DNA of 64,000 nucleotides from Malacoraja senta (taxonomy: Eukaryota): assembly GCA_038087875.1 (NCBI GenBank), contig CM075995.1, forward strand, positions 9,798,001 through 9,862,000, in the 5' to 3' direction. The notes under the pieces were generated by a model. It saw only the letters and a list, made by a program, of their open reading frames with translations. It had not been told where the DNA came from and did no database searches. Made by a program: the position numbers and the translations under genes. Shown here one piece after another: positions 17,221 to 48,337 of the stretch. Each line of letters opens with the position of its first letter. The first letter of the stretch is position 1.

Positions 17221-17308
17221 CTTTCCGTGCCTCAGTGGACTTCAACTTGTCCTGGTACAACCTGTCGTCGGAGGTCAGGCGACCCCGGGGGGACTGTGCT
17301 GTAAACAT
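17221..17308 (-). CDS. PLEC: Plectin alternative first exon 1a-like
   Basis: MFTAQSPRGRLTSDDRLYQDKLKSTEARK + G|GTATTT, phase 1 (88 nt); resembles mammalian 1a ..RKRTSSEDNLYLAVLRASEGKK (from memory); closest coding first exon to exon 2. Confidence 0.8.
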
Positions 17309-17554
17309 CGGGTGGGAGCAGAGTCTGAACCGATTCAACTGTGTCTCTCTGACTGACTGAATGACGCCTCTGTGCTTACACAGCTCTACTTGTTAGAGCC
17401 AGTCTGCACAACTTTCAATCACTGCCCCTCCCAACGCCACAAGGTGTGGTTCGAGGTGTGGCTACAGGCACACAACAGGAGAGGGCAGGCAGAATGGGGT
17501 TGTGAGGGGGCAGAGATTCAGGGCAAGCGTACCTGCCCACTCCCACTCCCAGCC

Positions 17555-18550
17555 TTTTTTTTAAATTATACAAATACTTTTATTCAAAAAATAAACATAC
17601 AGAGTATTAACACGATCAAAGGCTGCCTATATTGACAGTTTACAAACAAACGGTCATCAGATTAATATACCGGCAACTTTATCAACAATACACTCGACCT
17701 CCCGCGGCGACCAGTGTTCACGGAAGGCCTCCTAGGTCCTCGTGGATACCGCGTGATCCCTCTCCAGGGACACACGGGCACGGACGTAGGCCCAGAAAAG
17801 GGGCAGGCAGCCAATCCCGGCGCGGCCGTCGACTACCCGCTGCCTGGACCCGCTAATGGCCATCTTGGACAGGCCCAGGAGCAGACGGAAAGGGAGATCC
17901 TCTCTTCCATCCCGACCTTCCCCCCTCTGCGCCGGGTTCCCAAATATCAGGTGTGTGGGGCAAAAATGTAGCCAATACTTGAGGAGCAGCCCCTTCAGGC
18001 TACAACCTCTCACACTGCATGTAGACGTGGAACACGGTCTCTTCCTCGCCGCAGAAGTGACAGGCGGCTGGCGAGTCCATGAACCGGCTCAAGTACCTGT
18101 TACAGGCCACAGCCACGTGCAACACTCTCCACCCCAGGTCCCCATGTAAAGGGGGAGGACTCCCCTATAGAGAGACCTCCACTGGGGATCGCTCCCGCCG
18201 TCAGGTGATAACATGGCGTGTCAGGATGGAAGACGAGAGTGAGGAAGTGTATAGTGTGCAGGAGCAGCTGGTACAGTATGCGCCTCTCAGCGGCACGGTA
18301 CGGCATGCTGGGCATCTCGGAAAGGCGGCCAATGTTCCGTGGGGTCGGCTCTCGGGAAGGGACCCGGGCCGTAGGTCCTATGAGCAATTCCAACAGCTGG
18401 GGTAATTGGGAGTGAAAATGAGTCACATCCTGCCTATCTGTGGGCTCACCCTGCACTGCCTCATCCACTCAACGGTCCGCAGTTGCCCGATGGACTGTGT
18501 CCTCCCCCACCCCTGTACAACAGATAGATGTGCCTAGCTGGCAGCAAACA
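17555..18550 (-). mobile_element. 5'-truncated Tx1/L1-clade LINE with poly(A) signal and A tail
   Basis: Minus translation GDLGWRVLHVAVACNRYLSRFMDSPAACHFCGEEETVFHVYMQCERL (zf-RVT-type CxxC..H..C); ends AATAAAAGTATTTGTATAATTTAAAAAAAA. 5' boundary approximate. Confidence 0.85.
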
Positions 18551-18557
18551 TAGCCAA

Positions 18558-18840
18558 TGGGTGGGGGTGGAGACACAGGGTGATGTGGGGGTGGGGATGT
18601 GGGACGTGGGGGTGGGGACAGGGATGTGGGACGTGGGGGTGGGGACACGGTGATGTGCGGGTGGGGGTGGGGACAGAGTGGGGGTGGGGACGGGGATGTG
18701 GGACGTTGGGTTGGGGACACGGTGGGGGTGGGGACAGGGTGATGTGGGTGGGGACGGGGGATGTGGTGGTGGGGGTGCAGACAGTGGTGTGGGACGTTGG
18801 GTTGGGGACAGGGTGATGTGGGGGTGGGAATGGGGTGGGC
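18558..18840. repeat. Degenerate GT-rich minisatellite (GGGGGTGGGGACA..ATGTGGGACGT)
   Basis: Direct inspection. Confidence 0.85.
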
Positions 18841-20484
18841 AGGAGGTGATACAGTGCGGTTTCTGCTCTGTAAGGGGGAACGGAGAGGCGTCATTCTTTA
18901 ACTGGGGAGGGACAACTCGTTGCCCAATAAAGGAGACAAAAGCCTCAATAAATCAGACGGGGGAAAGGGGCCCTTCGGCCCATCTTGCCCGTGCCCACCC
19001 TGGTGCCCTGCTACACTGATCCCATTGATAAAGGAGGTGGGGGATGGGAGGCAGCAGGTATCGGGAGCCGGTGGATCACTGGAATTGCGAGGTGTGCGTG
19101 GGACTACAATCGGAGGTTGTGGCCGCTGACGAGGCCATGTGCAGTGTGTGCTCTCCGTTTACACACTCCATGGTGTGTACTGGAGGCTGTGAGGCACAGG
19201 TCATGGGGTTGATAAGTGGGGGTGAAGGGTTAACACAAAGCGACAATGAGCAGGTGGGACCCGCATCGCTGCAGCAATGATGGTGATCCCATTGACAGAT
19301 ATGAGCACCAAAACATGGAACAGTTCAGCACAGGAACAGGCTCTTCAACCAATAGTCTGTGCCCAGCAAGGTGCCAAGTTAAGACATATCTGTCTCCACC
19401 ACCACCACTGGCAGGCAGTGTGTTGCAGCTCCCGCAACTCTCTGTAAAATAACCTCCTGCGCATCTCCAGTAAACTTTGACCCTCTCACCTTCAAGCTCT
19501 GTCCTTCACTCTGGGAAAAAGGTTCTGACTGTCTACTCTATCTATGCCTCTCATAATGTTATACATTCCATCAGGTCTCCCCTCAGCCTCTAATGCACCA
19601 GAGAAAATAATCCAAGTTCGTCCAAATGTTTAGCTAATACCCCATAATCCAGGCAGTATTCCAGTAAACTCCTTCTGCAACCTCTCTAAAACTTCCACAT
19701 CCTTCTTGTAATGGGAGGCCAGAACTGCACACAGTATTCCAAATGCAGCCGAAGCAACGTTTTATAAAGATGCAACATGACTTCTTGACTTATACTCAAT
19801 GCCCCGACCGATGAAGACAAGAGAATAAAGAGGTCACCAAATTAAAATGATGTTGGGGAGGAATGCCCCTCTCCCCCAGCGAGCTGAGGAGGTGACCAAT
19901 GTTGTACTCAAGGCCGAGGCTGAGAGATTTTAATACAATGGAGTTGAGGAGTTTGCAGGGAGAGTGGGAAACTGATTGAAGCAGCTGCAATCCTACAGGG
20001 ACGAGGAGCATTGTGTTCCCTTTGCATTTCCTTGTTACTTTCCTCTATTGCACTCACTTTTCCCTTCCACTCTCTCCCTCCCTGTCCCTCTTTCTCCCCT
20101 CCACCTGCCTTTCCATCCATCCCTCCCTCTCCCCCTGCCTCAGCGTGCTACTCTTGGACGGTGTGCGAGAGACCTGGGTGGATTGTGTGCCTGCCTTCAG
20201 ATGTCACCGGCTCAGCCCCACACCCTGGGACAGGTGAGGGAGGTTTGGCTCCATGCTCCACATTTCTCAGCTTGTTCCGACAGCCCCACACACACAACAC
20301 AGAGAGAAGGTTCAGCTGCAGCAGAGCCAGCCCAGGCAGGGCTAGACCTGCCCCAGGGAGCAAGGAAAGCACAGTACTCACGCAGAACATCCCACTGCTC
20401 CCAGCACAACCCACCCAAACACACTATCATATATCAAACCCCTAACCCACCCCATCTCTCTGTCAGCCCCAGCCCACAACCCTG

Positions 20485-20774
20485 TATCAATCCCACTGCC
20501 CCACTCTCTCCCCACTGACCTGTGTCAATCCCACACTAATCCCACAGCCCTGTACTCATCCCACTGCCCTGTGTCAATCCCACTGCCCTGTACTGATCCC
20601 ACTGCCCTGTACTGATCCCACTGCCCTGTACTCATCCCATTGCCCTGTACTCATCCCACACTAATCCCACTGCCCTGTACTAATCCCACTGCCCTGTATT
20701 AATCCCACTGCCCTGTACTAATCCCACCGCCCTGTATCAAGCCCACTAATCCCACTGCCCTGTACTAATCCCAC
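20485..20774. repeat. 19-bp minisatellite ATCCCACTGCCCTGTACT(A/G/C)
   Basis: Direct inspection. Confidence 0.9.
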
Positions 20775-21014
20775 TTATTGTGGGGTCTTCACAGTTCTAC
20801 CACCTTTGCCTGGGTGGGTGGGGGCAAGTTGCTGGCTGGTGTTTTACCCTGCGATGGGCAATTGCCCACTGGGGTTAGTGATGTGGTGGGGAGTGTTGAT
20901 GGTATGGCGTAGTGTGGAACTTCCCTCTCCCTCACACAGAGAGCCAGTGCCCAGGGAGAGGGAGGGAGCGGGAGAAGAGAGAGAGGGGGAGGGGGAGGGG
21001 GAGAGGGAGAGGGA

Positions 21015-21059
<45 letters not shown>

Positions 21060-21069
21060 TGGCGGAGTG

Positions 21070-21290
21070 TCTGGAATGTGTGCCTCACCCTGAGCGAGAG
21101 GCGGATCAGGGCTGTGGGGAGAGAGCGTGACCACACCCTGCAGGATATAGGCAGTGCTCCAACAGTAGCTCCCTGACTCACAGTCGGAGCACCGGAAGCT
21201 GCCGAGCTGGGCAAGTTACACCCAGTGAATCAGGCGGACAGCCCTGCCAGGAATGCTGCCAACTCACTCACTCCGCACATTCCACAGACC
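21070..21290 (-). promoter_or_regulatory. Candidate promoter/enhancer with possible non-coding first exon (donor after 21089)
   Basis: AP-1 TGACTCA 21174-21180; TEAD-type GGAATG/CATTCC at 21073, 21250, 21278; CTATAT near 21145-21150; donor CAGG|GTGAGG; no ATG in the candidate exon. Confidence 0.4.
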
Positions 21291-21786
21291 CCTCATCATC
21301 AGCATTAACCAGGATCAAAGTCCCAGACACATCCACGCAGAGACCAGTGACATAGGACCCTCGAGCCAGGAGAACATCCAGCAGCACAGCACAGGAACAG
21401 GCCCTTCGGCCCACAATGTCGCTTCATAACATGATGCCAAGTTGAATTAGTCGCTTCTGTCTGGACGAGATCCCTCCATTTCCAGCATTTCCATGTGCCT
21501 ATCTAAAAGCCTCTTAAACATCATTATGGTATCTGCCTCCACCACCACCCCTGGTAGCACGTTCCAGGCACCCACTCCTCTAGATTAATAAACTTCTCCT
21601 TTAAACATTTCCCCCTCTCACATGAAAGCTATGCCTCCAGTCTTTGACATTTCCACTCCAGAGAAAGCTGCAGGGAGTGGTGAAGGATGCCTGTCACACT
21701 GGCCACTTCCTTTTCTCTTCAACCTTCTGAGATCAGATACAGGAGGTTGAAAGCTGAACGTACAGAAGTAAGAAGAGCTGCTTCCC

Positions 21787-23365
21787 CATGAGAGGAATAG
21801 ATCGGGTAGACGCACAGAGTCTCTTGCTCAGAGTAGGGGAATCGAGGACCAGAGGACATAGGTTTAAGGTGAAGGGGAAAAGATTTAATAGGAATCTGAG
21901 GGGTACCTTTTTTATGTACCTCTTTCTTCTGCAGTTGTATTGCTTCTGCAGTTGTATAGGGCTCTGGTGAGACCACATCTGGAGTATTGTGTACAGTTTT
22001 GGTCTCCTAATTTGAGGAAGGACATCCTTGTGATTGAGGCAGTGCAGCGTAGGTTCACGAGATTGATGCCTGGGATGGCAGGACTGTCATAAGAGGAAAG
22101 ATTGAAAAGACTAGGCGTAATTGGAACTGGAGTTTAGAAGGATGAGGGGATAACTTATAGAAACATATAAAATTATAAAAGGACTGGACAAGCTAGATGC
22201 AGGAAAAATGTTCCCAATGTGGGCGAGTCCGGAACCAGGGGCCACAGTCTTAGAATAAAGGGGAGGTCATTTAAGACTGAGGTGAGAAAAAATGTTTTCA
22301 CCCAGAGTTGTGAATTTATGGAATTCCATGCCACATAGGGCAGTGGAGGCCAAGTCACTGGATGGATTTAAGAGAGTTAGATAGAGCTCTAGGGGCTAGT
22401 GGAGTCAAAGGATATGGGGAGAAGGCAGGCACGGGTTATTGATTGGGGACGATCAGCCATGATTACAATGAATGGGGGTGCTGGTTCGAAGGGTCGAATG
22501 GCCTCCTCCTGCACCTATTTTCTATGTTTCTATGCAAAGAGTGGTAGATTATGGAACGAGCTGCCAGAGGAGGTAGTTGTGGCAGGGACTATCACAACGT
22601 TTAAAGAACATTTGACAGGTACATGGATAGGACAGGTTTGAAGGGATATGGACCAAGCGCAGGCAGGTGGGACTAGTGTGGCTGGGACATGTTGGTGAAC
22701 CAATCACCTCTTTCACACCCCATTCCCGGGAGAGCTGCCATCTATTAGAAGAAGTATAACATAGCAAAGATGAGCGGGAAGCCAGAGGATTGGGTAACTT
22801 TTAAAGAGCAACAGAAATTAAGTTAAAAGGCAATACGGGGAGAAAAGTTGTGGTACGAAGGTAAGCTAGCCTGTATGGTCGTGAGTAGTCGCCCAAAGAG
22901 TCTACCTTTTTCTGGTCGCCACTGGATTTTTAACATGTTGAAATTTTTCGGCAACCTGCAACGACCAATGACAGGTGCCGGCAGTCACCGAAAAAGTCAC
23001 GTAAGTGGGACAGGCCCATTAGGGTTTGGACACGCTAGAGGCAGAAAACATGTTCCCAATGTTGGGGGAGTCCAGAACCAGGAGCCATAGTTTAAGAATA
23101 AGTGGTAAGCCATTTAGAACGGAGATGAGGAAAAACTTTTTCACACAGAGAGTTGTGAGTGTGTGGAATTCTCTGCCTCAGAGGGTGGTGGAGGCTGGTT
23201 CTCTGGATGCATTCAAGAGAGAGTTAGATAGAGCTCTTAGGGATAGCGTAGTTAAGGGATATGGAGAGAAGGCAAGAACGGGGTACTGATTGTGGATGAT
23301 CAGCCACATTGAATGGCTCGAAGGGCCGAATGGCCTACTCCTGCACCTATTGTCTATTGTCTAGT
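21787..23365 (+). mobile_element. Nested CR1 LINE 3' ends with a DNA-transposon (MITE) end fragment at about 22872-23017
   Basis: CR1 at 21787-21915 resumes at about 22535 after a second CR1 (21947-22535); third CR1 at 23020-23365; AGTGGGACAGGCCC terminus resembles Harbinger-like TIRs (low certainty). Confidence 0.78.
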
Positions 23366-24755
23366 ACTCTGAACTCTATTTGAAGGACAATAAACTAATC
23401 TGAATGTGAATTCCTGACTGCAGATAAACATTCTATGACTCAAGCCAGCAGCTGGTGTGGGCACAGCCTGTGTTACACACTCATGCGGGCACGGCCATGT
23501 TACACAACTCACAGAAAGCATACTTATCACAAGTCAGGTCTCAGGAGTAACTGAATTCACCATCACCTTGCATGCACACCAAGGTTAGAATCACAGTCAT
23601 ACAGCTGGGAAACAGGCCCTTCCGCACAACCCATCCATGGAAACAAAGATGCCCCACCGCTGAGGGGAAGTCCTGTAATGATTAAGGTTGGAACCTCTTT
23701 GTTCAATGACAATGTGATCATACCACTGGGACCAACAACGGGTTGCTAACTAATGGGAAGGATGCAATGAATAAGTTTGCAAGGAAGTTCCAGATATCTG
23801 GAAAAGTGGTCAGGCGGTGAGAATGGAGACCTGCACCGTACAACAACAGACTGGGCCACAGCAACATACTGGGCTGAGGAGTGTGTTCACAACTCCCTCA
23901 ATTAGCAAGTTTCTACAGCAGCACTTTCAGGGGATGATATCAGAGAGGACATTTAGGAGGTGAAGTTCTGTGAAATCTGGTTTCTTGGTTCTGGGGTCGC
24001 ATTGTGTGTACTTCACTTTAACACTAAGTACTACAGCTAATATTATTATTGATTATTATATATTATTTGTGATTTTGCATTTACAAGCCTGTAAAGCTGC
24101 AGCAAGCAAGAATGTCATTGTTCCGTTGCCAGTACATACAACAAACACTGATGACTCCTCATGCATATTTTACTCTGCCTCGATTCAAGTGTTTATCTCA
24201 ATGATTCTGAAACAGGAATAGTCCCCGCCACACCCCACAGACAGTGTGTTCTACAACCATCCTCTGGGGGGGAATATTCTTCCTCTGATTGTTTCTAAAC
24301 CGCCTACACCTCACCTTAAACCTGTGCTTTCTAGCTTTAGATAGTTCTGCTTTGGGGAATGTTTCCTCTTGTCACTGCTCTTTGCCCATCACAGTTCGGA
24401 TCATCCTTCTCAGTTCCCCCTCAGCCACCTGCAATCATTAAACTGGGCGCAGAGGAGGCATAATGAGAGGCTGGATCGTGTGGGATTTCCCCCCCCCTGA
24501 AGGCTTAGAGGCTGAGGTTTGACCTTGTAGAGGTGTATAAAATCATGAGGGGAATAGATCAAGTGGACGGTCACAGTCTTATCTCCAAGGTAGGTGAATC
24601 AAAAACTAGAGGGCACAAAGGAAGGAAATAATAGGAGCAACTTTTCCACAAAGAGGATGGTGGTTATACAGAAAGAGCTGCCAGAGGAGGTCGTTGACAC
24701 AGGTACAACAACTACTTTTGAACAGGTACATGGATAGGAAAGGTTTAGAGGTATA

Positions 24756-26029
24756 CAGTGCATTCAGAAAGTATTCAGACCCCTTCACTTTTTCCACATT
24801 TTGTTACTACAGCCTTATTTTAAAGTGGATTAAATTCTTTTTTTTCCCATCAATCTACACACAATACCCCTGAATGAAGAAGCAAAAACAGGTGTTTAGA
24901 AATATTTGCAAAGTAATTAATAAGAAATAACTGAAATATCACATTTACATAAGTATTCAGACCCTTTGCTCTGACACTCAAAATTGAGCTTAAGTTCTTC
25001 CTGTTTCCATTGATTACCCTTGAGATGTTTCTACAACTTGATTGGAGTCCACCAGTGGTAAATTAAATTGATTGGACATGATTTGGAAAGGCACACACCT
25101 GTCTATATAAGGTCCCACAGTTGAGGTGCATATCAGGGCAAAAAACAAGCCATGAAGACGAAGGAATTGTCCGTAGACCTCCGAGACAGGATTGTGTCGA
25201 GACACAGATCTGGGGAAGGGTATAAAACAATTTCTGCAGCATTGCAGGTCCCGAAGAGCACAGTGGGCTCCGTCATTCTTAAATGAAAGAACTTTGGAAC
25301 CACCAGGACTCTTCATAGAGCTGGTTGCCCGGCCAAACTGAACAATCGGGGGAGAAGGGCCTTGGTCAGGGAGGTGACCAAGAACCTGATGGTCACTCTG
25401 ACAAAACTCCAGAGTTCCTCTGTAGAGATGGGAGAACATTCCAGAAGGACAACTATATCTGCAGAACTCCACCAATCAAGCCTTTATGGTAGAGTGGCCA
25501 GACAGAAGCCACTCCTCAGTAAAAGGCACATGACAGTCCGCTTGGAGTTTATCAAAAGGCACCTAAACAAGATTCTCTGGTCTGATGTGGCTTTGTGACA
25601 AGTCTGTGAATGTCCTTGAGTGGCCCAGCCAGAGCCCAGACTTGAACCCGATGGAACATGTCTGTAGGGACCTGAAAATAACTGTGCATCAACGCTCCCC
25701 ATCCAACCTGACAGAGCTTGAGAGGACCTGCAGAGAAGAATGGGAGAAATTACCCAAATACAGGTGTGCCAAGCTTGTAGCTTCATATCCAAGAAGACTT
25801 GACGCTGCAATTGCTGCCAAAGGTGCCTCAACAAAGTACTAAGTAAAATGTCTGAATATTTATATAAATGTGATATTTCAGTTATTTCTTTTTAATTACT
25901 TTGCAAAAATTCTAAACACCTCTTTTTGCTTTTTATGATGGACTATTATGTAATCAATTTTAGAATAAGGCTGTAGCGTAACAAAATGTGGAAAAAGTGA
26001 AGGGGTCTGAATACTTTCTGAATGCACTG
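24756..26029 (+). mobile_element. Tc1/mariner DNA transposon, internally deleted, long IR/DR-type TIRs, TA target duplication
   Basis: TA|CAGTGCATTCAGAAAGTATTCAGACCCCTTCAC ... GTGAAGGGGTCTGAATACTTTCTGAATGCACTG|TA; inner repeat AAGTATTCAGACC at 24951; flanks rejoin into a CR1 3' UTR. Confidence 0.95.
25152..25842 (+). pseudogene. Tc1 transposase remnant
   Basis: MKTKELSVDLRDRIVSRHRSGEGYKTIS..ILK*KNFGTT..YGRVARQKPLL..KILWSD / VLEWPSQSPDLNPMEH..GASTKY; premature stop and loss of the middle of the DDE domain. Confidence 0.93.
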
Positions 26030-27009
26030 TATGGGCCAAGTACAGACAAGTGGAATTATCCCAATTAGGCAACTTGGTCGGCATGGATATGTTGTGCTGA
26101 AGAGCCTGATTCTGTGCAGATTCTGTCTGGGACTCTATAACACTCCGGGGAGAACAGACCCAGCCTCTCCTGTCTCTCCTCTTGTATCCGAATACACCAT
26201 CCCATGCAACATCCTGATGAATCTCCTCTGCCCCCTCTCCTGAATGATCCCATTCTTCCCGTAGTGTGATGACCAGAACAGAGCAAAATACTCCAGTTGT
26301 GGTTGAACCAAGTTGTACATGGAACACAATAACAGGCCCTTTGGCCCACAATGTCTGTGCTGAACTTGATGCCAAGCCTATCACTATCCACTTGCACTTA
26401 ATCCATAAGCCTCCATCGCTGCTCTTACATTCTGTGCACTGGCTAATGAAGGCCAATATACTGTGTGCTGGCTTGCCCACTCCACCTGCCATGCTATCTT
26501 CAGGGATCCTTAGACTTGTACACCAAGGTGCCCGTGTTCCTCATCACTCTCCAGAGCCTTCTATCTGTGGCACACGACCAACCCTGCCCTTACTATTCCA
26601 TACAAAGTGCATCATCAGTAGCTCCCAGCCCATCATACACCACACTAGCTGATCGACACCATATGCCTGTCATTAGCACATGATAGGGCGGTGACTTTGG
26701 GGTCGTTTTGGAGGAGGCATGGGGGGGGCTTTGACATTTAGGACACAGGATTCGGGACACAGAGCTCTGGCGGTGGTGATAGGGGAGAGGAGTCTGGGGC
26801 AGGCAGGATGGATAAGATGGGTTCTGGGACAGAGGCAGAGGCAAAAGGTAGGGGTCGGATTCATGGAAGGAGTCTAAGGAGAAGGGGCTCTGGAGGAGGA
26901 GACTGGGGTGGAGTCAGTTGAGGCAGAGACACCCTGGGAAAATGGTTCTCGTAGATAGACAGTCTACCATTTCTATGCCTCTTATAATTGTATATGTCAT
27001 CTATCAAGT

Positions 27010-27745
27010 GACACCAGGTGGCGCCAGCAATGGCTGCCTCGCCAACAGTCTGTCTGTCCCTTCCTTCTTTGTTGTTTTAATAGTATGTGTTAAATGTATG
27101 TTTTTGGGTTCATTGGCTTGTTTTATGTGGGTGGTTGGGGGGAACTTTTTCTAAGCTCGTACGTTGACGGAGATTCAAATTTTTTCCGTATCGTATCTCC
27201 ATCCACACTGCGGCCTAACATCGAGGAGTTGGCGGCCTCTGCTGGGAACCTGCGGGACTTACCATCGCAGAGCTGGCGAACCCTGTCGGGATCGACCTTG
27301 GAGCTCCAACCGCAGGAGCCTGTGGACTTAAACATCATGGAGCTCGCGGTCTCTGGTTAGAGGCCGACTTCAGGATCTCCAAGCCTCAGGAGGTTCGATT
27401 GCCCTGACGCGGGAGCTTCGATCGGCCCAACGCGGGAGCTTCGACCGCCCCGACACGGGAGCTTCGATCGCCCCGACACGGGAGCTTCGATCACCGGCTG
27501 TGAGAGCTTCGACTGCCCCGATTGCGGATGGTTCGACTGCCCCGACCGTAGGAGAATAAAGTGGAAGAAGATTGGACTTTATTGACTTCCATCACAGTGA
27601 GGAATGCGGAGAATCTGCTGTGGTGGATGTTTATCTGAACTTTTATGTAGTTGTGTGTCTTGTTGCTTTTTTTTTTGTATGGCTGTATGATAATTCACAT
27701 ATTACTGTACCTTAATTGGTACATGTGACAATAAAAGACCTTTGA
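27010..27745 (+). mobile_element. Non-autonomous retroposon-like insert with internal 23-bp CpG-rich tandem repeat and LINE-type tail
   Basis: Interrupts a minus-strand CR1 remnant; GGGAGCTTCGATCGCCCCGAC(A/G)C units at about 27385-27545; tail GTGACAATAAAAGACCTTTGA resembles the Rex1/Babar tails elsewhere in the window. Confidence 0.6.
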
Positions 27746-28595
27746 AGTCTTCCCTCAACCTCCAATGTTCCATTGAAATCAAGCCAAGCATGTCCAACCT
27801 GTCCCTGTAACTGAAACCCTCTCATCAAGGCAGCATTCTGGTAAACATCCTCTGCTCCAAAGTTGCCACATTCTTCCTGCAATGGGGTGGCCTGAACGTC
27901 ATGCAATAGTCTATATGCAGCCTAACCAAAGTCCTATAAAGCAGCATCATTATTTCCTGACTCTTACACTCAATGCCCCGATCTATCTACTTGCGTGGCC
28001 ACTTTCAGGAAGTTATGGACATGGACCCCAAGATCCCTCTGTACATCAATGCTGTTAAAGATTGTGCCACTGATTGCATATTCTGCCATTACATTCGACC
28101 TTCTGAAGTACAACACCTCACATTTGCTCATATTAAACTCCATCTGCCATTCCTCCACACATTTCTGCAGCTGATCTGTATCCCACTGCATAGTTTGACA
28201 ACCATCCCCACAGTCTGCGTCTCTAGCAATTTTGGAAGAAACAAGAATCCGCATAACTGTGGCACAGCAAGAGGCCAGAGTGTACTGGCATCAAAGTCAA
28301 GACCCTCCGCAACAAAGGGTTCATGACAAGCATGCAGTGTGTAGGATGTGGCCAGCTCACACTGGGTTAACAACTGTGTGTAGGGTAACAGAAACTGATG
28401 GGGCAGTGCAGACTGACTGACTCGTGAGGGGTTAACAGGGTTGGGTGCAGTGTGACAGAGACTGAAGGGGCAGTGTGGAGTGACAGTGGATAACAAAGAG
28501 TTAACAGTGTCGGAAATTGACAGGGCAGTGTACAGAGCTTCAATGGATCACGAGGAGTTAATAGGGCAGGTCTAGACTGGCACCAGAACATAAAG

Positions 28596-29638
28596 TAGGT
28601 ATGTTACAATACTTACCTTCAGAGGCGCTGTAATTCTGCCACTGGCCGTGTGCGCGATTTTGGCGCCTTTGAGAGGGGGGGGCGGGGTTAAAACGCGGGT
28701 TTCTCCTACCTTGTCCTGTATTATATTTCGTTGGAGTACAAGCTTTTGCGGAAGAATCGTTCCGAGGGGCGTTTTGAGTATTTCTTTTTTTAAATCTCCC
28801 GACAATTTCAGCGCTGCAGTCATTTTAAAATCAGCTTCTGAAGCCGTCAACGCCAACAACGGGGACGGATTTCACGTACGGGAAAGGTAAACGAAAGTGG
28901 TTTATTTTAATGTATAAACGTTCTCCTTAAGAGGCCTTTAATTCACATTTTTACATGCAAAACGGTGATTCTTTTCCCCGAACTAACGGCAGTATTTTTC
29001 ATGCCGATACGGGGTTAAATTCACCGCAAATCAACGTTCCAAATGATCGCGTTCCAGAAAATCCCACTCGCAAGATGATATAAATGCCCATTAATTTACA
29101 GGTATTAAACATTCAATTTCTTCCATTTGGCCTATAAATCCATGACAATGAGATTTAAAAATTATGTTATATTGTGAATTCTTGTGTGAATGTTATTTGG
29201 ACACTTAGGCTATTAAAAAATGTTAATCTATTCTTAAGAAATTGATAGATGTTTAGATCTAGTAATTGAATTTTGTAATTAGTTACAATTAGGTAACTAA
29301 CTAATTATATGCTTTAATTTCAGGTCATCCAAGTAAGATTGTTTCATATTTGTTTCAGAATGCTTCAATCTATAATAACTGAACATTTCTTTCAGTTCTC
29401 TTAATTTTTAAGAAAGTTATGGGCTTTTGACTGTCCTCGATCACAGCTTTTGTGTTAAGTCAATGGAAAAGCAATAGGGAACAAGATGCTAATTTCCGAG
29501 TATGAAGATGGCCAACATTTTTAATACTGAAGATATGAAAGTGAATTAGGTGTCAAATTAAACTTCTTTTTATGCTTTATCTGATGGGATAAATTGCAGA
29601 CTTTATTTTTTAAATCTCAAAATTTTGTAACATTGCTA
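28596..29638. mobile_element. Non-autonomous hAT-like DNA transposon (about 1.04 kb, AT-rich)
   Basis: Imperfect TIRs TAGGTATGTTACAA / TTGTAACATTGCTA; flanking direct repeat CATAAAG at 28589-28595 and 29639-29645. Confidence 0.8.
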
Positions 29639-29864
29639 CATAAAGGGTTAAGAAGCATTGTGGCACTATCTGGATCACGAAGGGTTAATGGGACTGTGAT
29701 GGGCTGACGACACTGGTTGAGGAATGGTTAATGGGCTGACACCGGCTCGGGAAGGGTTAATGGGACTGTGATGGGCTGACACTGGTTGAAGAAGGGTTAA
29801 TGGGCTGACACCGGCTCGGGAAGGGTTAAGAGGCAGGGCTACACTGATGAAACTTGATACGCAC

Positions 29865-29949
29865 CCAGACAACACATCTGCGTCAGTAGGTAATGGTTAA
29901 CCTCTCGTTCCCGGGTGTAACTACACCAGACACCCTGCTCGCTCCACAT
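29865..29949 (-). CDS. PLEC: Plectin alternative first exon 1g-like
   Basis: Hand translation (too short for the ORF track) MWSEQGVWCSYTREREVNHYLLTQMCCL + G|GTGCGT, phase 1 (85 nt); C-terminal HYLLTQMCCL resembles mammalian 1g GYLYQQLCCV (from memory); lies between 1b and 1a. Confidence 0.78.
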
Positions 29950-30469
29950 GATGCCGGAGTCCTGCCCCAGCTCGCCGCTGCTCCACAGCCTCAGCTCGCC
30001 GCTGCTCCACTGCCTCGGGCCCGGCTCAACTTACAGTCTTGTTCCCCTCAGCAACCAATGTGAAGCACAGCCACACCCAGCCGCTACCCCGTCCCCAGCC
30101 TGGCCTCCGCTTCAGCCCCACCCTCCACATACCCAACATCATGGAGCTTGGCTCCGCAGCCAACACCCAGCCACACAACTTGCAAGTTAAAAGGGCAACG
30201 CCGCAGGGGCACTTTGCATCTCTCCACCGCTTCAAGCACTGAACCCTCGGCAACATGAATGATGCATGCATGGCGCAAACAACAATTGGATGGGGTAACG
30301 GGGTAAGAAGGGCCCCGCGAGTCGCGCTTCTACTTCTGAATGACATTTACACTCGGAGTTAGCAGGATAACGGGCAAGATGTCCATTTCTGTTCCTCCGG
30401 GGAGATTTAGGTAGTCACAGACCACAGAATCGGCATCGAAATTCCCAGTGCTCCACTCCGCCCTCTTTT

Positions 30470-30684
30470 CTCCCTCAGTACTGCCCCCTCCCTCGGTGCG
30501 GCGCTCCCTCAGTACAGCCCCTCCCACAGTGCGGCGCTCCCTCAGTACTGCCCCCTCGGTGCGGCGCTCCCTCAGTACAGCCCCTCCCACTGCGGCGCTC
30601 CCTCAGTACTGCCTCCTCAGTGCGGCGCTCCCTCAGTACTGCCCCCTCCCTCGGTGCGGCGCTCCCTCAATACCGCCCCTCCCA
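30470..30684. repeat. About 30-35-bp tandem repeat GTGCGGCGCTCCCTCAGTACTGCCC.. (resembles the Deu-SINE core motif)
   Basis: 6-7 copies seen; the SINE-core relationship is from memory. Confidence 0.85.
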
Positions 30685-33600
30685 TAATCGAACTCAAAAA
30701 TAACTTTCACCTTCAAAGCCCGTGGAAAATTTGAGCTCCTCATTTGTCCCCTCCCCCTTAACTCTCAGTGGTCTGAGGTTTGAGGTCGAAAGGTGTTTCT
30801 CTGAGCTGTGACCAATGAATTCTGCAGGGATCAGTGCTGTAACCTTTTTTAATAAGTTTGTTAATAAGTTTGTTAATAACTTTGCAGACACCACCAAATC
30901 GGAGGAGTTTAAAGAAGATGTGCAGGGCATTATTTTTTCGGATGGTGGTTGCCTGGAATGCATTGCCATAGGTGGTGGAATCAGTTGAGATAGTGAAGTA
31001 TAAAAGGCTTTTCGGTAGGCACAAGGATATGGAGGGAATGAATGGACATGGATTATATGCAGGCAGATGAGATTGGTTTAACAACATTATGTTCAGCACA
31101 GACATTGTGGGCTGAGTAGCCTGTACCTGAACTCAATTGTATTATGTCCTATGTTTCAATAAGATTGCTTCTCATTCTTGGAAAGTACTGTCAGTCCCAA
31201 CCTAGAGTAAGAGCCAAATATCACAGGAACAATCCCTGCAGCCCTCCACGTCCATACCAACCATCAGGTTCCTATCTATACATCCCATTTACTTGATCCA
31301 TATTTTTCTCTGTCTTGGCAATTCAAGTATTCATCTGGATACATGTCAAGTGTTAGAGAATCTGCCCCCACCACCAATCAGACAGTGTGCTCCAGATTCC
31401 AACCCGTGGTATGCATGCCTTCATCAGACACAGCAATGGGGACAAGAGATGAAACATCATGTTACAGCTTTACAAGTCACTGGTGAGACTCCTTTTGAAG
31501 TATTGGTCCGCCATGGAGCATGGAAACTGGTCCTTCAGCCCAGCTATGCCAACCAAGATGCCCATCAAAGCTAGTCTCATTTGCCCATGTTTGGTCAAAT
31601 GGACTACTTTCCCCTTTCGATCTTTTCCTTCATACCTTAAACTAGTACCCATTAATTTTAGGATCCCCTACCATGGGAAAATGATCAGGTCACCCTTCAG
31701 CTTCCTTGGCTCCATGGAAAGCAATGCCAGCCTGTCCAGCCGCTCCTTATAACTCAAGCACTCCAATCCCAGCAATATCCTTGTAAATCTTTTCATCACC
31801 CTCTTTCACTTAATTACACCAACATGAACAACATTTAAAAGACGTTTGTTCAGATATATGGATAAGAAAGGTTTATATGGATTGGGGCCAAATGGGACGA
31901 GTTGGGCCAAAGGGTCTGTTTCGGTCGAATATAGACACAAAAAGCTGGAGTAACTCAGCGGGACAGGCAGCATCTCTGGAGAGAAGGATGGGTGATGGTT
32001 CAGGTCGAGACCCTTCTTCAGAAGGTCTGTTTCGATGTTGTACTATTCTGTGACTCCACAACGACACAGCATAGCAAAATAATCCTTCATCAGATCCAAG
32101 GGATTCTGAGGGACAGGATTGATTTGCATTTGTAAAGGTAGGGACTGATTAGGAGTTATCATGGCTTTGTGCATGAGAAATTGTGTTGCACAAACTTGAT
32201 TGAATTTTTTTAAGAGGATGGACAAGGGCAAGGTGGTACGTGGACTTTCACAAAGCATTTTAAAAGTAACAAAATGGCAGACCAATCTGTAAGGTTAAGA
32301 TTACAAATTAGTTTGGTGTTGGAAAACCGGGGTGGGTGGGCAGGCTTGTGACTGGTGGCATGTAACAGTAATCGGGGTGTGGCTTGTCATAGATATTAAC
32401 AATGTTTGTAGGTAATGTGATCAGTATGTTTGCAGATGATGTATTGGTGGTACAGCAGACAGTGAAGGTGCTTGTCTAAGAATACAATAGGATATTGATC
32501 AACTGGGAAAGTGGCCAAAGGAATTGCGGATGGAATATAATGCAGGCAAAAATTAAGTGATGCATTTTGGGAAAATAAACTAGGGCAATGATGCAGCAGA
32601 ATAGAGATGAGGAAGCAAATTTGGACAGGAATGGCAGATGGAGTTTAATCTGGCACGTGTGAGATGTTGCACACTTTGGGAGGTCAAATGAAAGGGGAAA
32701 GTATAATGGCACAACCCTCAGCGACTGATAGAAACATAGAAAATAGGTGCAGGAGTAGGCTATTCTGCCTTCGAGCCAGCACCACCATTCAATATGATCG
32801 CGGCTGATCATCCAAAATCAGTACCATGTTCCTGCTTTCTCCCCATATCCCTTGATTCCCTTAGTCCCAAGACCATCAGAGAACTCCATCAGAGATAAAT
32901 CTAACTGATGTACAGAGGGATCTCGGGGTCCAAGCACACTACTCCCTGAAAGTGGCAACACAAGTGGGTAGAGTGGTAAAGAAGCTATATGGTATGCTTG
33001 CCTTCTTTGGTCAGGGCATTGAGTTTCAAAGTATGTTATCTCTACTTGTTTTCTGGGAGGCCGAGAGAGAACCTGATAGAAATTTATAAAATTATGAGAG
33101 TCATGACTGGTGTATAGTCACGATGGAAATATCAAAGACTAGAGAACATAGCTTTAAGACGAGAGGGGGAGAGTTTAAAGAAGGTATGCATGGTGGATTT
33201 TTTAATATATAAAGGCAGTGCTGGGGGTGGTGGCAGATACAATACGATGCTTATAGACAGGCATGGATATGCAGGGAATGGAGCAATTATGGATCACAGG
33301 CAGGCAGAAGAATTTAGTTCTCTCGAAACCTCAGCCTGAATTATGTCCTCCAGTGTTAAGACAATACTTTGGAGAAATGTTTCTCAAAATCTATGTTATC
33401 AGGTCACTGCACAGCTACCTACAGTCCAAGGAAAATTCCAGCCTATTGAAATTCAAGTTATGCAGCATGGAAACAGGCCCTTCGGCCCACCTCACTCACA
33501 TCGACCAAGTTTTCCACCTGAGCTTGACCCATTTTCTCACATTGGGCATCTATCCCTCTCAAACCTTCCTATCCATGAACCTGTCCAAATCTCTTTTAAA

Positions 33601-34468: not shown

Positions 34469-34577
34469 CTGATCTCTGCCTCTTCCTCTTCCTCCAGTGC
34501 CAGACCACCAGCAAGGTGACAAGATGCCCCAACACCACCAGCGAGGGCAGCAGCCGGTCGGGGGAGCCTTGAGGCAT
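34469..34577 (-). CDS. PLEC: Plectin alternative first exon 1b-like (mitochondrial signal-anchor type)
   Basis: MPQGSPDRLLPSLVVLGHLVTLLVVWHWRKRKRQRS + G|GTAAGG, phase 1 (109 nt); close match to mammalian 1b MEPSGSLFPSLVVVGHVVTLAAVWHWRR; sits in a CpG-rich island (about 34360-34920). Confidence 0.93.
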
Positions 34578-35487
34578 GAGGGGGATGACGTCTGCGCTCC
34601 TCAGCCAGACACGTAGACCAGGGCAGGCTGCAGGCGGAGCGCTGTCTCGGCGGCCGGCCACCCTCTGCAATGCAGCGCCGCGATGCTGCACCTCCCTCAG
34701 CTGTCTGTCCCTCCCTCCCTCCCTCCCTCACTCCCTCACTCACTCACTCACTCCATCGCGGCCACTCTGTGCGCTGCCGCAGCCAAGGGGAGCGAGGAGC
34801 AAGAGGAAGAGGCAGGGACAGAGTCGGAGGGAGAGAGCAGTTGGCGACGGTCCAATGTGGGCTCGGGCCGCAGAGTGCGCTATCACTGAAGCAGGAGCCG
34901 CCGCCACAGTTCACTCCCCACTCCCTGCAATATCTTGATATCACTATGTTTATCTGCTTATTTCTCCCCTCTGTCACTCTCTCCCCATTGCCTGTATCCT
35001 CTTGCTTTGCTCTCCACCCCCTCTCTCGTTCTTTCTGTCTCCCCCTCCCTCCCGTCCGTCTGTTTCTCTCTCTTGCCCTGTTTCTCTCTCCCTCTCCTAG
35101 TCTTTTACTCCTGCCCCCACACTCCCACCCCTGTTAGTTTGCCCCCACTCTCCCCTCAATACTCCCGTTTTCCGTTTAACTGTATTCAATGTCCTCTCCC
35201 TCTCGGCCACACAAAGGGTCACAGCGGGGATGGCAGTTCCTATTTACAGGTGTCACCTTTACAAAGGAATCTAGTTTTCACATTTAACGCATACGTAAAT
35301 AGTTCCCTGGCTCCTCGCCAGTTTAGACCAAAGATACTGGTTTAGACCAGGAGGAGAGGCCAGGAGTATTTTAAGAGAAGTTGCTGCCAGTAAATTCAAA
35401 ACATGATTCAAAGCAGATGAGAATTTGACTCCGCTGAAATTGTGGCAAATATGTGAATGCCCAGCGTCAAGGTGGCGCGGCACCTAC

Positions 35488-35503
35488 CCGGAATCAACTT
35501 CAT
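35488..35503 (-). CDS. PLEC: Plectin alternative first exon 1d-like (coding part, 16 nt)
   Basis: ATG AAG TTG ATT CCG G|GTAGGT = MKLIP, phase 1; mammalian 1d is MKIVP; lies between exons 1 and 1b; AT-rich TATA-like element at 35636-35643. Confidence 0.8.
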
Positions 35504-35709
35504 TCACCTCGACTCCCGCAACGGGGGCAGCAGAAGGGTCTGGAGGGGCCCAGAACCCAGAGAGTGTAGTGCGACACACCGCCAGCCGACTCTACACAGC
35601 ACAAGAGTACCGTTGTCCCCTGTGAGGGGCTGCGATATAAATATCCTCTGATTAAAGGCTGCGGGCATGGCAGTCCGGCTCAAGGACATGAGATCCTGCC
35701 AGCAGTGAT

Positions 35710-37920
35710 CACACCCACCCCTTACACACTGGCCCCTCGTACCCACACCGACCCCTCACGCCCACCCCTTACACACTGGCCCGTCACACCCACCCCTTAC
35801 ACACTGGCCCCTCATACCCACCCCTTACACACTGGCCCCTCACACCCACCCCTTACACACTGGCCCGTCACACCCACCCCTTACACACTGGCCCCTCACA
35901 CCCACACCCACCCCTCACACACTGGCCCCTCATACCCACCCCTTACACACTGGCCCCTCATACCCACCCCTTACACACTGGCCCCTCATACCCACCCCTT
36001 ACACACTGGCCCCTCACACCCACACCGACCCCTCACACACTGGCCCCTCATACCCACCCCTTACACACTGGCCCCTCGTACCCACACCGACCCCTCACAC
36101 CCACCCCTTACACACTGGTCCCTCACACCCACCCCTTACACACTGGCCCGTCACACCCACCCCTTACACACTGGCCCCTCATACCCACCCCTTACACACT
36201 GGCCCCTCATACCCACACCGACCCCTCACACACTGGCCCCTTACACCCACCCCTTACACACTGGCCCCCCACACCCACCCCTCACACACTGGCCCCTCAC
36301 ACCCACACCAACCCCTCACACCCACCCCTTACACACTGGCCCCTCATACCCACCCCTTACACACTGGCCCGTCACACCCACACCGACCCCTCACACCCAC
36401 CCCTCACACACTGGCCCCTTACACCCACACCGACCCCTCATACCCACCCCTTACACACTGGCCCCTTACACCCACACCGACCCCTCATACCCACCCCTTA
36501 CACACTGGCCCGTCACACCCACACCGACCCCTCATACCCACCCCTTACACACTGGCCCGTCACACCCACACCGACCCCTCATACCCACCCCTTACACACT
36601 GGCCCCTTACACCCACCCCTTACACACTGGCCCCTTACACCTACCCCTCACACACTGGCCCCTTACACCCACACCGACCCCTCATACCCACCCCTTACAC
36701 ACTGGCCCCTTACACACTGGCCCCTCACACACTGGCCCCTCACACACTGGCCCCTCACACACTGGCCCCTTACACCCGCCCCTTACACACTCGCCCCTTA
36801 CACACTGGCCCCTTACACACTGGCCCCTCACACACTGGCCCCTTACACACTCGCCCCTCACACACTGGCCCCTCACACACTGGCCCCTCACACACTGGCC
36901 CCTCCACACTGGCCCCTTACACCCGCCCCTTACACACTCGCCCCTTACACACTGGCCCCTCACACACTGGCCCCTTACACCCGCCCCTTACACACTCGCC
37001 CCTTACACACTGGCCCCTCACACCCACCCCTTACACACTGGCCCCTCCCACCCACCCCTTACACACTCGCCCCTCACACCCACCCCTTACACACTCGCCC
37101 CTTAAACACTGGTCCCTCACACCCACCCCTCACACACTGGTCCCTCACACCCACCCCTTACACTGGCCCCTCACACCTACCCTTACACACTGCCCCCTCA
37201 CACTGGCCCCTTACACCCACCCCTCACACCCACCCCTTACACAATGGCCCCTTACACACTAGCCCCTCACACCCACCCCTCACACACTGGTCCCTCACAC
37301 CCACCCCTCATACACTGGCCCCTCATACCCACACCGACCCCTCACACACTGGCCCCTCACACCCACCTCTCTCACACCCACCCCCTCACACCCACCCCTT
37401 ACACACTGGCCCCTCACACCTACCCCTTACACACTGGCCCCTCATACCCACACCGACCCCTCACACACTGGCCCCTCACACCCAGCCCTTACACACTGGC
37501 CCCTCACATCCACACCGACCCCTCACACCCACCCCTTACACACTGGCCCCTCACACCCACCCCTCACACACTGGCCTCTCACACCCACCCCTCACACACT
37601 GGTCCCTCACACCCACACTGACCCCTCACACCTACCCCTTACACACTGGCCCCTCACACCCACCCCTCACACACTGGTCCCTCACACCCACACTGACCCC
37701 TCACACCTACCCCTTACACACTGGCCCCTCACACCCACCCCTCACACACTGGTCCCTCACACCCACACTGACCCCTCACACCTACCCCTTACACACTGGC
37801 CCCTCACACCCACCCTACACACTGGCCCCTCACACCTACCCCTTACACACTGGCCCCTCACACACCGGCCCCTCATACCCACACCAACCCTCACACTGGC
37901 CTCTCACACCAACCCCTGAC
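35710..37920. repeat. 2.2-kb complex minisatellite (ACACTGGCCCCT(C/T)ACACCCACCCCTTAC)n
   Basis: Direct inspection; source of spurious ORF 35705-37105. Confidence 0.97.
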
Positions 37921-42471: not shown

Positions 42472-42670
<199 letters not shown>

Positions 42671-43890: not shown

Positions 43891-44069
43891 AGTAGATGTT
43901 TTATTTCATGGTCAGAACATTGAGAATAAGATTTAGGAAGTCATGTTAAGAACGAACTTCACACAGCTTGCCCACGGTGCACCTGATTTATTTCATACCT
44001 CGCGTTCTCTGAGGAAGGTGCCGAGATCACCCTGCACCTTCCAGACCTGCACATAGAAGTTGGGAGGTC

Positions 44070-46476: not shown

Positions 46477-46680
46477 CACAGGTGTACACACGTGATACTC
46501 CCACACGCAACACAGGTGTACACACGTGATACTCCCACACGCAACACAGGTGTACACACATGATACTCCCACACGCAACACAGGTGTACACACATGATAC
46601 TCCCACACGCAACACAGGTGTACACACATGATACTCCCCACACACAACACAGGTGTACACACATGATACTACCACACACC
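46477..46680. repeat. 34-bp minisatellite CACAGGTGTACACAC(G/A)TGATACTCCCACACGCAA, about 6 copies
   Basis: Units start at 46477, 46511, 46545 and onward. Confidence 0.92.
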
Positions 46681-46989
46681 ACAACAGACACCCCTGCACA
46701 CTGCGATACAGACGTACACATGTGATAGTCCTGCACACTGCGATAGACGCACACACGACACTCCTGTACAGATGTATACGTATGACACTCATGAACACCA
46801 TGACAATACACACACGGTGAAACTCCAGCATACTATAACACATACAAGTAACAAAGGTCTGAACATGCTCTGAAAGCCCACCAATCCTGATGCGCATGTG
46901 ATCACTGACCAAGCCACGATTCACCGCATTTCCCCCTGCACACTTCCCAAAACATTGAGATGGGATGGTCCACAAGGTGAAACATGCTG

Positions 46990-47795
46990 GGGAGGGGAGG
47001 GGAGACAGTGATGGTGACTAGCGGGGGAGAGGGAGGCGTGTGTGGTGGGGGGGAAGAGAGGCATAGGACAGGAGAGAAACAGCAGGTTGGGAGAGATGAG
47101 AGACAGGGGAGAGAGATGGGGCCAGAGAGATGGAGACAGAGAGCGACAGGGAGGGGGATGGGGAGAGAGGGAGTGACAGGGATGGGGATGAGGGAGGGGG
47201 ATGATGGGGATGGGGATGAGGGAGTGGGATGAGGAGGATAAGGGAGGGGGATGAGGGAGATGAAGAAGAGGGGGATGAGGATGAGGGGGATGAGGGAGAG
47301 GGATGAGGAGGGTAGGGGGTGGGGATGAGGGGGGGTGGGGAGAGGGATGAGGGGGATGGGGATAAAGGGGATGAGGGAGAGGGATGAGGGGGATGAGGGG
47401 GATGACGGGGAGGGATACGAGAGGGATGAGGAGGATGGGGTTGAGGGGGATGGGGATGAGTGGGATGAGGGAGAGGGGGATGAGGGGGATGGGGATGAGG
47501 GGGATGGGGATGAGTGGGATGAGGGATGAGGGGGATGAGGGAGGGGGATGGTGGGGATGAGGGAGGGGGGTAAGGGAGGAGATGAGGGGGGCAGAGATGA
47601 GAGGAAGAGGGATGGGGATGAAGAGGTGGATGAGGGGGATGAGGGGGATGAGTGGGGTGAGAGGGGTGAGTGGAGTGAGTGGGAGATGGGCAGGGGAAGA
47701 ATGGCAGGCAGGGGGAGGAGAATGGGCTGATAGGGAGAGAGGGGAGAAGGGGAGAGGGATGAGAGGATAATAAGATGGAGATGATGTGGGTGGTG
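46990..47795. repeat. Purine-rich (GGGGATGAG)n low-complexity tract
   Basis: Direct inspection. Confidence 0.92.
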
Positions 47796-47868
47796 GGGCT
47801 ATGCATGCCACATGCAGGGTGGAGGGTCACAGTGGAGTCTGATGTGTGGGGTGGGGGTCACTGCTAAC

Positions 47869-48337
47869 CTGCTGAGGATGTCCCGATCAACACCAGCCCC
47901 ACCTCGGGCCCCTTCTTGTCTCTCAGCTCCTCGATCTTGCGATACTCCTGCCTCCCCCGCTCAGCGTCGGTGGAGGGTCCTGGTGGCCGAGGAGAGGGGC
48001 GGGGGACGGGGGCCCGGAGGGTGGGGCGGTGCCGGGCCTGTCGCTGCAGGGTGGCGGGTACGATGTCGGGGGGCAGGTGCAGGTACTGGCGAAGGAAGCC
48101 CACACCCTGGTCCATCAGGTACCAGTAGTGGTGTCTCCACACGAAGCTCTCCCGCACCATCCCCCGAGACTTCAGTGAGCCCAGGGCCCGGATCACCTGC
48201 AGGTTGGACAGGGCCCTCAGCTCAGGGTGCCGGGACTGGGGGCACCGGCTCTCCTGGGCCACCACCACCCCATCTCGGAACAGCAGCTCGTACAATGCCC
48301 GCAGCTGGGGCAGGGGCAGCAGCATGCCTGCCACCAT
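47869..48337 (-). CDS. PLEC: Plectin alternative first exon 1 (S10/plectin domain), 469 nt coding
   Basis: MVAGMLLPLPQLRALYELLFRDGVVVA..NLQVIRALGSLKSRGMVRESFVWRHHYWYL..LRQYLHLPPDIVPATLQR; strong Kozak GCCTCACCATGG; donor GCA G|GTTAGC in phase 1. Confidence 0.95.

What the first reader, a model, noticed from the sequence alone, without database searches (positions are those of the whole stretch)
17221..48337. Mammalian-type array of plectin first exons (1, 1d, 1b, 1g, 1a) conserved in identity, phase and order
Seen: five separate ATG-to-donor units, all 3n+1 nt and ending in G, which completes the Asp of DERDRVQKK in exon 2. Established: mammalian isoform-specific N-termini target plectin to different structures (1 nuclear/ER membrane, 1d Z-disks, 1b mitochondria, 1a hemidesmosomes). 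Inference: if the organism is a chondrichthyan, this targeting code predates the split of jawed vertebrates. Exons 1g and 1d are absent from the ORF track and could easily be missed by annotation.
Basis: partly seen in the sequence, partly recalled or inferred. Interest (0 to 1): 0.7.

Follow-up and report, generated by a model that had tools for sequence, protein, structure and literature searches.

The report
Ancient set of plectin first exons
A fish that is probably a shark or ray starts its gene for the cell-scaffold protein plectin with five of the same alternative first exons as mammals, so this set of address tags is old; that is a modest extension of known biology, with two small twists in individual exons.

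Summary
All five ATG-to-donor units exist on the minus strand, are 3n+1 long and end in G. That alone means little: 254 such units lie upstream of exon 2, and one shared exon 2 forces one phase.

Homology is what carries it. Each unit scores best for its own mammalian class, with names tied to mouse primers, RefSeq labels and human coordinates. Order 1>1g>1a is shown for human and 1b>1g>1a for a lizard; the place of 1d is only indirect.

The gene is plectin and falls outside teleosts and tetrapods. Cartilaginous fish is likely, not proven. Splicing could not be tested.

Two additions:
- Exon 1g matches a Cys-Cys head of shark MACF1 better than any bony-vertebrate plectin 1g, so it probably predates the plectin/MACF1 duplication.
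- Exon 1a has Lys at the essential calmodulin anchor V29, so conserved exons do not prove a conserved targeting code.

Teleost RefSeq models already carry 1, 1a, 1b and 1g. Verdict: real, largely expected, modest interest.

The parts
47869..48337 (-). Coding part of first exon 1: S10 (eS10-like) domain plus a short proline-rich tail, 156 codons + G
   Evidence: Pfam S10_plectin E 1e-30; 63 of the first 100 aligned residues identical to mouse isoform 1, P0396; the frame closes at a stop just past the donor
35488..35503 (-). Coding part of first exon 1d, five residues (MKLIP) + G
   Evidence: 3 of 5 identical, other two conservative, to mouse RefSeq isoform 1d P0391; rank 1 of 1674 frames, 0 of 200 shuffles; five-residue length as in PMC8391331
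34469..34577 (-). Coding part of first exon 1b: hydrophobic segment followed by a basic tail (signal-anchor type), 36 codons + G
   Evidence: HMM of 16 bony-vertebrate heads E 1.3e-15; hydropathy 1.02 vs 1.11 for mouse in the same register, C-flank charge +5; strongest donor of the five
29865..29949 (-). Coding part of first exon 1g, 28 codons + G, ending in a Cys-Cys pair
   Evidence: Rank 1 of 1259 frames, 0 of 200 shuffles; Leu at -8 and Cys-Cys shared with 23 of 23 heads; 9 of 24 identical to a shark MACF1 head; weak donor
17221..17308 (-). Coding part of first exon 1a, 29 codons + G; calmodulin 1-5-8 motif not kept
   Evidence: Rank 1 of 1140 frames, score 30.4 vs next 14.8, 0 of 200 shuffles; 9 of 29 identical to human P0401, 11 to carp P0119; column census
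14337..14398 (-). Common exon 2 (62 nt), start of the actin-binding domain
   Evidence: AG acceptor and GT donor; tblastn 22 of 24 to Pogona plectin
13..9075 (-). Five further constant plectin exons (about 9075-8909, 5169-5054, 1053-947, 507-388, 117-22): CH2 and start of the plakin domain
   Evidence: tblastn, splice sites; tree places them in the plectin clade

Best explanation
This is the 5' end of the plectin gene of a jawed fish outside teleosts and tetrapods, most likely a shark or ray. Five alternative first exons, orthologous to mammalian 1, 1d, 1b, 1g and 1a, are each spliced to exon 2 and put a different short head on the actin-binding domain. Shown here: the exons, their homology and most of their order. 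Inferred: separate promoters and actual splicing. How each head most likely works (all inferred from mammals or from sequence): 1b inserts in the outer mitochondrial membrane as a signal anchor (likely, about 0.75); 1d is the striated-muscle Z-disc form (about 0.6); 1 is the nuclear/ER form (about 0.5); 1g attaches to membranes through S-acylation of its invariant Cys-Cys (my hypothesis, about 0.4); 1a is the epithelial adhesion form but probably without the mammalian calcium-calmodulin release switch (about 0.6).
For: Best-in-window scores for all five classes; Pfam S10; HMM for 1b. Names: mouse exon-specific primers in PMC10807171 Table S2, read by eye, encode stretches of heads P0399 (1a), P0392 (1b), P0391 (1d), P0398 (1g); RefSeq labels for mouse 1d and 1. 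Human order and phase: exon 1 at chr8:145024865 (c.10), 1g at 145016664-145016560 (c.20-c.124, c.124 = G of Asp42), 1a at 145013602 (c.28), exon 2 at 145012801. Lizard model P0383 runs 1b-1g-1a and Danionella model P0131 runs 1g-1a. Plectin clade support 99, window sister to all 17 bony-vertebrate plectins at 89. 1b meets the two signal-anchor criteria of PMC2426950.
Against: No RNA evidence (tests were not possible). Donors of 1g, 1a and 1 are weak by a rough matrix. Unanchored HMM support is poor for 1a (E 0.38) and modest for 1g (E 0.0041, with an unrelated piece at 0.0045); with looser donor rules the 1g margin shrinks to 26.8 vs 21.4. The 1d profile rests on one distinct five-residue head, and no 1d head was among 42 teleost and 28 amphibian cluster members fetched. 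The place of 1d in mammals rests on RefSeq number order and recall. With sturgeon and paddlefish rows (S10 domain only) the window's position is unresolved, support 31-38. No localisation was tested.
Confidence: 0.8

Rival explanations
1. The exons are real and used, but what is conserved is tissue-specific promoter use and tuning of the actin-binding domain, not a subcellular address code.
For: PMC8391331 says only the 1b head was shown to suffice for targeting. 1a has Lys at position 29 where 27 of 27 bony-vertebrate-type heads have Val or Met; L25D+V29D abolishes calmodulin binding. The first 22 residues of 1a, proposed as the hemidesmosome signal, are not alignable here.
Against: 1b keeps 17 of 22 core residues with mouse (read by eye) and its charge pattern; 1d keeps its length and pattern; Tyr26, Leu30 and Lys37 of 1a are kept, so a binding face persists.
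Confidence: 0.35
2. One or more of the short units (1g, 1a, 1d) is a decayed, unused remnant.
For: Weak donors; 1g and 1a are shorter than their homologues (28 vs 34-73 residues for most, 29 vs mostly 36-45); a 24-nt tandem duplication sits just upstream of the 1g ATG.
Against: Frames are open, ATG and donor sit exactly where the homologous heads begin to match and end; 1g still matches a paralogous head. Such short signals would not survive hundreds of millions of years unselected (inference).
Confidence: 0.12
3. The organism is not a cartilaginous fish but another early-branching jawed fish, so the array dates only to the base of bony vertebrates, which database models already imply.
For: No chondrichthyan plectin was retrieved; with S10-only sturgeon and paddlefish rows the window groups loosely with them; no bichir, gar, coelacanth or lungfish row was available.
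Against: Sister to all 17 teleost and tetrapod plectins at 89; only 69 of 100 identical to paddlefish in the S10 domain; exon 1 frame is 157 codons against 632-772 in sturgeon and paddlefish proteins; 1g is closest to a shark paralogue head. The intronic repeats look like those of rays and sharks (recalled, not tested).
Confidence: 0.12
4. The short units are chance ATG-to-GT stretches picked out of a large background.
For: 254 such units exist.
Against: 0 of 200 shuffles reach the scores of 1a, 1g or 1d; the five come in the expected order; classes expected elsewhere (1c, 1e, 1f, 1k) give no comparable hit, best 11-21 against self-scores above 51.
Confidence: 0.02

Closest known systems
Mammalian PLEC/Plec variable first exons (1, 1a-1g, 1k; non-coding 1h-1j)
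   Same: Five of the nine coding first exons; phase 1 ending in G; 62-nt exon 2; order 1>1g>1a>2 as in human
   Different: Span from exon 1 to exon 2 is 33.9 kb against 12.0 kb; 1a lacks V29 and A32; 1g and 1a are shorter; 1c, 1e, 1f, 1k not in this window
Teleost and amphibian plectin isoform models in RefSeq (Danio, Astyanax, Sander, Bombina and others)
   Same: Carry 1, 1a, 1b, 1g heads; the window's 1a shares Tyr-Gln and terminal Arg-Lys with teleosts
   Different: Their exon 1 is long (teleosts 558-1400, frogs 1142-1905 residues) against 156 here; no 1d head among those fetched; teleosts have extra Cys-rich heads not found here
Shark MACF1 isoforms with a Cys-Cys head (Carcharodon XP_041069004.1, XP_041069005.1; Cetorhinus XP_078423166.1)
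   Same: Head joins the same exon-2 position and matches the window's 1g at 9 of 24, score 55
   Different: Belongs to the paralogous spectraplakin gene (about 7400 residues); these are predicted models whose RNA support I did not see
Sea lamprey plectin-like isoform X7 (XP_032815518.1)
   Same: Begins with the same S10 head, 65 of 100 identical
   Different: 6670 residues, long branch, not grouped firmly with jawed-vertebrate plectin

Membership tests
Plectin (PLEC) rather than MACF1 or dystonin | ABD and plakin exons group with plectins | tested here: met
   170-183 of 222 identical to plectins, 105-135 to MACF1/DST; clade support 99
Plectin (PLEC) rather than MACF1 or dystonin | [quoted passage not shown] | not testable with these tools
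   Outside the window; no genome held
Plectin isoform 1 | S10 domain with a four-residue extension before the eS10 start | tested here: met
   Pfam; eS10 chains align from residue 5 of a teleost isoform 1; alignment
Plectin isoform 1b | Moderately hydrophobic segment with net positive C-flank (PMC2426950) | tested here: met
   Hydropathy 1.02 (nine comparators 0.86-1.36), flank +5. My value for mouse residues 5-27 is 1.11, not the paper's 1.491; residues 5-25 give 1.476, so only like-for-like comparison is used
Plectin isoform 1d | Five-residue head like mouse 1d | tested here: met
Plectin isoform 1g | Head ending Leu-x4-Cys-Cys-x as in mouse 1g | tested here: met
Plectin isoform 1a | Homology of the last 15-19 residues, ending at the donor; last first exon before exon 2 | tested here: met
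Plectin isoform 1a | Calmodulin 1-5-8 motif L25, V29, A32 (PMC4353693) | tested here: not met
   Window has Leu, Lys, Ser; 17 of 17 tetrapod-type heads have Leu, Val, Ala; the 10 others (mostly teleost) lack Leu25. Binding itself not tested
Mammalian first-exon array | Order 1, 1d, 1b, 1g, 1a | tested here: inconclusive
   1>1g>1a shown for human, 1b>1g>1a for a lizard; 1d only by RefSeq accession order and recall
Mammalian first-exon array | Upstream exons 1c, 1f, 1e and exon 1k | tested here: inconclusive
   Not found in the window; only 15.7 kb upstream of exon 1 is visible
Mammalian first-exon array | Each exon transcribed from its own start and spliced to exon 2 | not testable with these tools
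   No RNA holder listed; the runs laid behave as DNA
Mammalian first-exon array | Isoform-specific localisation | not testable with these tools
   Needs cell experiments

The most novel reading that the evidence does not exclude
The plectin heads were assembled in datable layers. 1c, 1f and 1g were inherited from the spectraplakin ancestor before plectin, MACF1 and dystonin split, with 1g a lipid-anchored Cys-Cys head that survives in shark MACF1. The S10 head was captured before lampreys branched. 1a, 1b and 1d were in place in the last common ancestor of jawed vertebrates. The calcium-calmodulin switch on 1a that helps take hemidesmosomes apart is a later, tetrapod addition.
Probability: 0.45. 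Interest if true: 0.5.

Novelty: new member of a known kind. Interest (0 to 1): 0.33.

Why it matters
How 5-40 residue heads steer a 500-kDa linker is stated as open, above all for 1d (PMC8391331). A distant outgroup shows which residues have been held: the five-residue pattern of 1d, the membrane core of 1b, the Cys-Cys of the little-studied 1g, and Tyr26/Leu30/Lys37 but not Val29 of 1a. These give direct mutagenesis targets and a natural 1a variant for separating adhesion targeting from calmodulin control. The gene structure itself is known, and its presence in fishes is already implied by database models, so the gain is incremental.

Tried and rejected
RNA test: no RNA holder listed. Contigs of X1, X2, X3 and X9 laid on 17000-35650 cover introns, the tool rates X1 and X2 'probably DNA', and the joint and loose-end tables were filled by repeats; no conclusion on expression either way. 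Four of the nine runs were laid, and exons 1 and 2 were outside the stretch.

No own genome held. PDB search with the 1a frame: 0 hits at E 10. Pfam: nothing for 1a, 1b, 1g. Word-based protein search with 1b: 12 candidates, none scored. Metagenome scan with 1b: 591 pattern matches, none confirmed. The read-through exon 1 protein is not in the protein collection. No chondrichthyan plectin among the 120 listed of 1377 hits. Earlier scan notes: nothing.

Searches for 1c, 1e, 1f, 1k, teleost Cys-rich heads, the membrane exon upstream of 1c and mini-exon 2alpha: none found. The 1f library included one MACF1 head. CpG and promoter-motif scan: nothing beyond background. Alternative donors on the same ATG (34457 for 1b, 48106 for exon 1) rejected for weaker donor or truncated domain. 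MACF1/dystonin identity rejected. Phase as independent evidence rejected. No complex prediction was run: no vertebrate calmodulin sequence was available.
Full report
OBSERVATION. The window holds the 5' part of a minus-strand gene. As a pattern this is common: 254 ATG-to-G|GT phase-1 units lie between 14399 and 64000. Any first exon that feeds one shared exon 2 in frame must have that phase, so phase adds nothing. Only 1b has a strong donor by a recalled, approximate matrix.

THE GENE. Six constant exons (222 residues) are 170-183 identical to bony-vertebrate plectins and 105-135 to MACF1 and dystonin. The window joins the plectins at support 99 and is sister to all 17 teleost and tetrapod rows at 89, with a lamprey protein outside. 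Adding the S10 domain and two S10-only sturgeon/paddlefish rows leaves it inside jawed-vertebrate plectin (98/97) but unresolved against those two (31-38). So it is neither teleost nor tetrapod; a cartilaginous fish is my reading at about 0.85. No chondrichthyan plectin came back from any search. PMC8782857 lists a skate PLEC gene but showed no isoform analysis in the passages and supplement rows seen.

IDENTITY OF THE FIVE EXONS. I collected first-exon heads from fetched proteins: 41 distinct heads of class 1, 27 of 1a, 16 of 1b, 23 of 1g, one of 1d, and others. Names come from RefSeq labels (mouse 1d and 1, human 1c), from mouse exon-specific primers read by eye against the heads (PMC10807171 Table S2) and from the residue numbers in PMC4353693. 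Each window unit scored highest for its own class among the 254; for 1 and 1b the runner-up or tie was the same ATG with another donor, and 1d could be scored on 24 units. Donor-anchored profiles gave 1a rank 1 of 1140, 1g 1 of 1259, 1d 1 of 1674, with 0 of 200 shuffles of the exon 1 to exon 2 interval reaching each. Against this: unanchored HMMs gave E 1e-15 for 1b but only 0.0041 for 1g (an unrelated piece scored 0.0045) and 0.38 for 1a, and with looser donors the 1g lead narrows to 26.8 against 21.4. Heads 1c, 1e, 1f and 1k were not found; only 15.7 kb upstream of exon 1 is visible and introns here are 2-4 times the human length.

ORDER AND PHASE IN OTHER SPECIES. Variant tables in PMC6117038 place human exon 1 at chr8:145024865 (c.10), 1g at 145016664-145016560, 1a at 145013602 and exon 2 at 145012801, on the minus strand, so 1>1g>1a>2; c.124 of 1g is the G of Asp42, the same phase as here. 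A lizard gene model strings 1b, 1g, 1a in that order and a Danionella model 1g, 1a. For 1d I have only the RefSeq accession series 1f, 1e, 1, 1d, 1b, 1g, 1a and recall; the figures that show the order are not held.

HOW IT WORKS. In mammals each first exon is spliced separately to exon 2 and the head sets localisation (PMC3695321 section 6), though only 1b was shown to suffice alone (PMC8391331). Exon 1b here meets both published signal-anchor criteria. Exon 1d keeps five residues, three identical and two conservative. Exon 1 keeps the S10 domain. For these three, mammal-like targeting is a fair inference, not a result. Splicing could not be tested.

TWIST 1: EXON 1a. Calmodulin binds mammalian 1a through L25, V29 and A32, and the double change at 25 and 29 abolishes binding. 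All 17 tetrapod-type heads have Leu, Val, Ala. The 10 others, mostly teleost, have Met or Val at 29 but no Leu at 25. The window has Leu25, Lys29, Ser32. What nearly all share is Tyr26, Leu30 and Lys37. The simplest reading is that the full motif is tetrapod-specific; loss in this lineage, or binding in another register through Tyr26 and Leu30, is not excluded.

TWIST 2: EXON 1g. Three RefSeq models of MACF1 from white and basking shark begin with a head that joins the same exon-2 position and ends in Cys-Cys. It matches the window's 1g at 9 of 24 without gaps, score 55, above the best of the 23 plectin 1g heads (43; median 30). 0 of 100000 full shuffles and 1 of 100000 with the last four residues fixed reach it. 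1c- and 1f-type heads also occur in dystonin and MACF1. So 1g probably predates the gene duplication. The invariant cysteines suggest S-acylation; dystonin lead sequences are said to carry such sites (10.1101/122010), but for plectin 1g this is my hypothesis. Caveat: two related shark species, predicted models. A sea lamprey plectin-like protein also carries the S10 head, so exon 1 is older than jawed vertebrates too.

WHAT IS KNOWN. The mammalian array is textbook. Teleost and amphibian RefSeq models already include 1, 1a, 1b, 1c, 1e, 1f and 1g, so deep conservation is latent in databases. Ten searches of the held library listed no paper that compares plectin first exons in cartilaginous fish or links 1g to MACF1; subscription papers are largely missing, and whether RefSeq annotates these exons in sharks or rays was not seen.

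PAPERS SEEN. Passages only: PMC8468861, PMC2426950, PMC8391331, PMC4512624, PMC2386106, PMC1885805, PMC13410127, PMC3352950, 10.1101/122010 (its supplements not seen and may show spectraplakin lead sequences). Passages plus one section: PMC4353693, PMC3695321. Passages plus supplement rows: PMC8782857, PMC10807171, PMC6117038. Not seen: Fuchs 1999, Rezniczek 2003, Zhang 2004.

VERDICT. Real exons, correctly named; order mostly confirmed; age claim likely; 'targeting code' only partly supported. New member of a known kind, interest 0.33.

Noticed in passing
window 14336-9076 (N gap 10965-11164): The exons for most of CH1 (between exon 2 and the exon at 9075) are missing from the window; they probably fall in the 200-N assembly gap, which would break gene models at this locus.
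   Followed up: partly
window 47869-48337; proteins P0442, P0308, P0503, P0133, P0134, P0176: Exon 1 is short here (156), in lamprey (198) and amniotes (163-180) but long in frogs (1142-1905) and teleosts (558-1400). Frog and teleost long parts showed no match beyond about 110 residues after the S10 domain, hinting at separate expansions.
   Followed up: partly
window 35488-35503: 1d is present here and in amniotes but was in 0 of 42 teleost and 0 of 28 amphibian cluster members fetched. Sampling is partial (15 listed per cluster), so loss is only a lead.
   Followed up: partly
window about 35640-35660: An AT-rich, TATA-like stretch lies about 150 nt upstream of the 1d ATG (seen); may mark its promoter.
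   Followed up: no
proteins P0342, P0469, P0515, P0426 (teleost plectin a): Teleosts have an extra short head with three to five cysteines near the start; nothing like it was found in the window.
   Followed up: partly
window 16160-16975 (-): A 271-codon frame that reads like a LINE endonuclease lies between exon 1a and exon 2 (family recalled, not tested). Very high contig depth at 21354-23841 and 31928-33171 marks other high-copy repeats.
   Followed up: no
window 35710-37875, 14542-15173, 9041-10100: Long GC-rich tandem arrays in introns give long spurious ORFs.
   Followed up: no
protein P0176: The lamprey S10-bearing plectin-like protein (6670 residues) sits on a long branch apart from another lamprey protein (P0136) that is closer to plectin in the ABD tree, so which lamprey gene is the orthologue is unclear.
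   Followed up: partly
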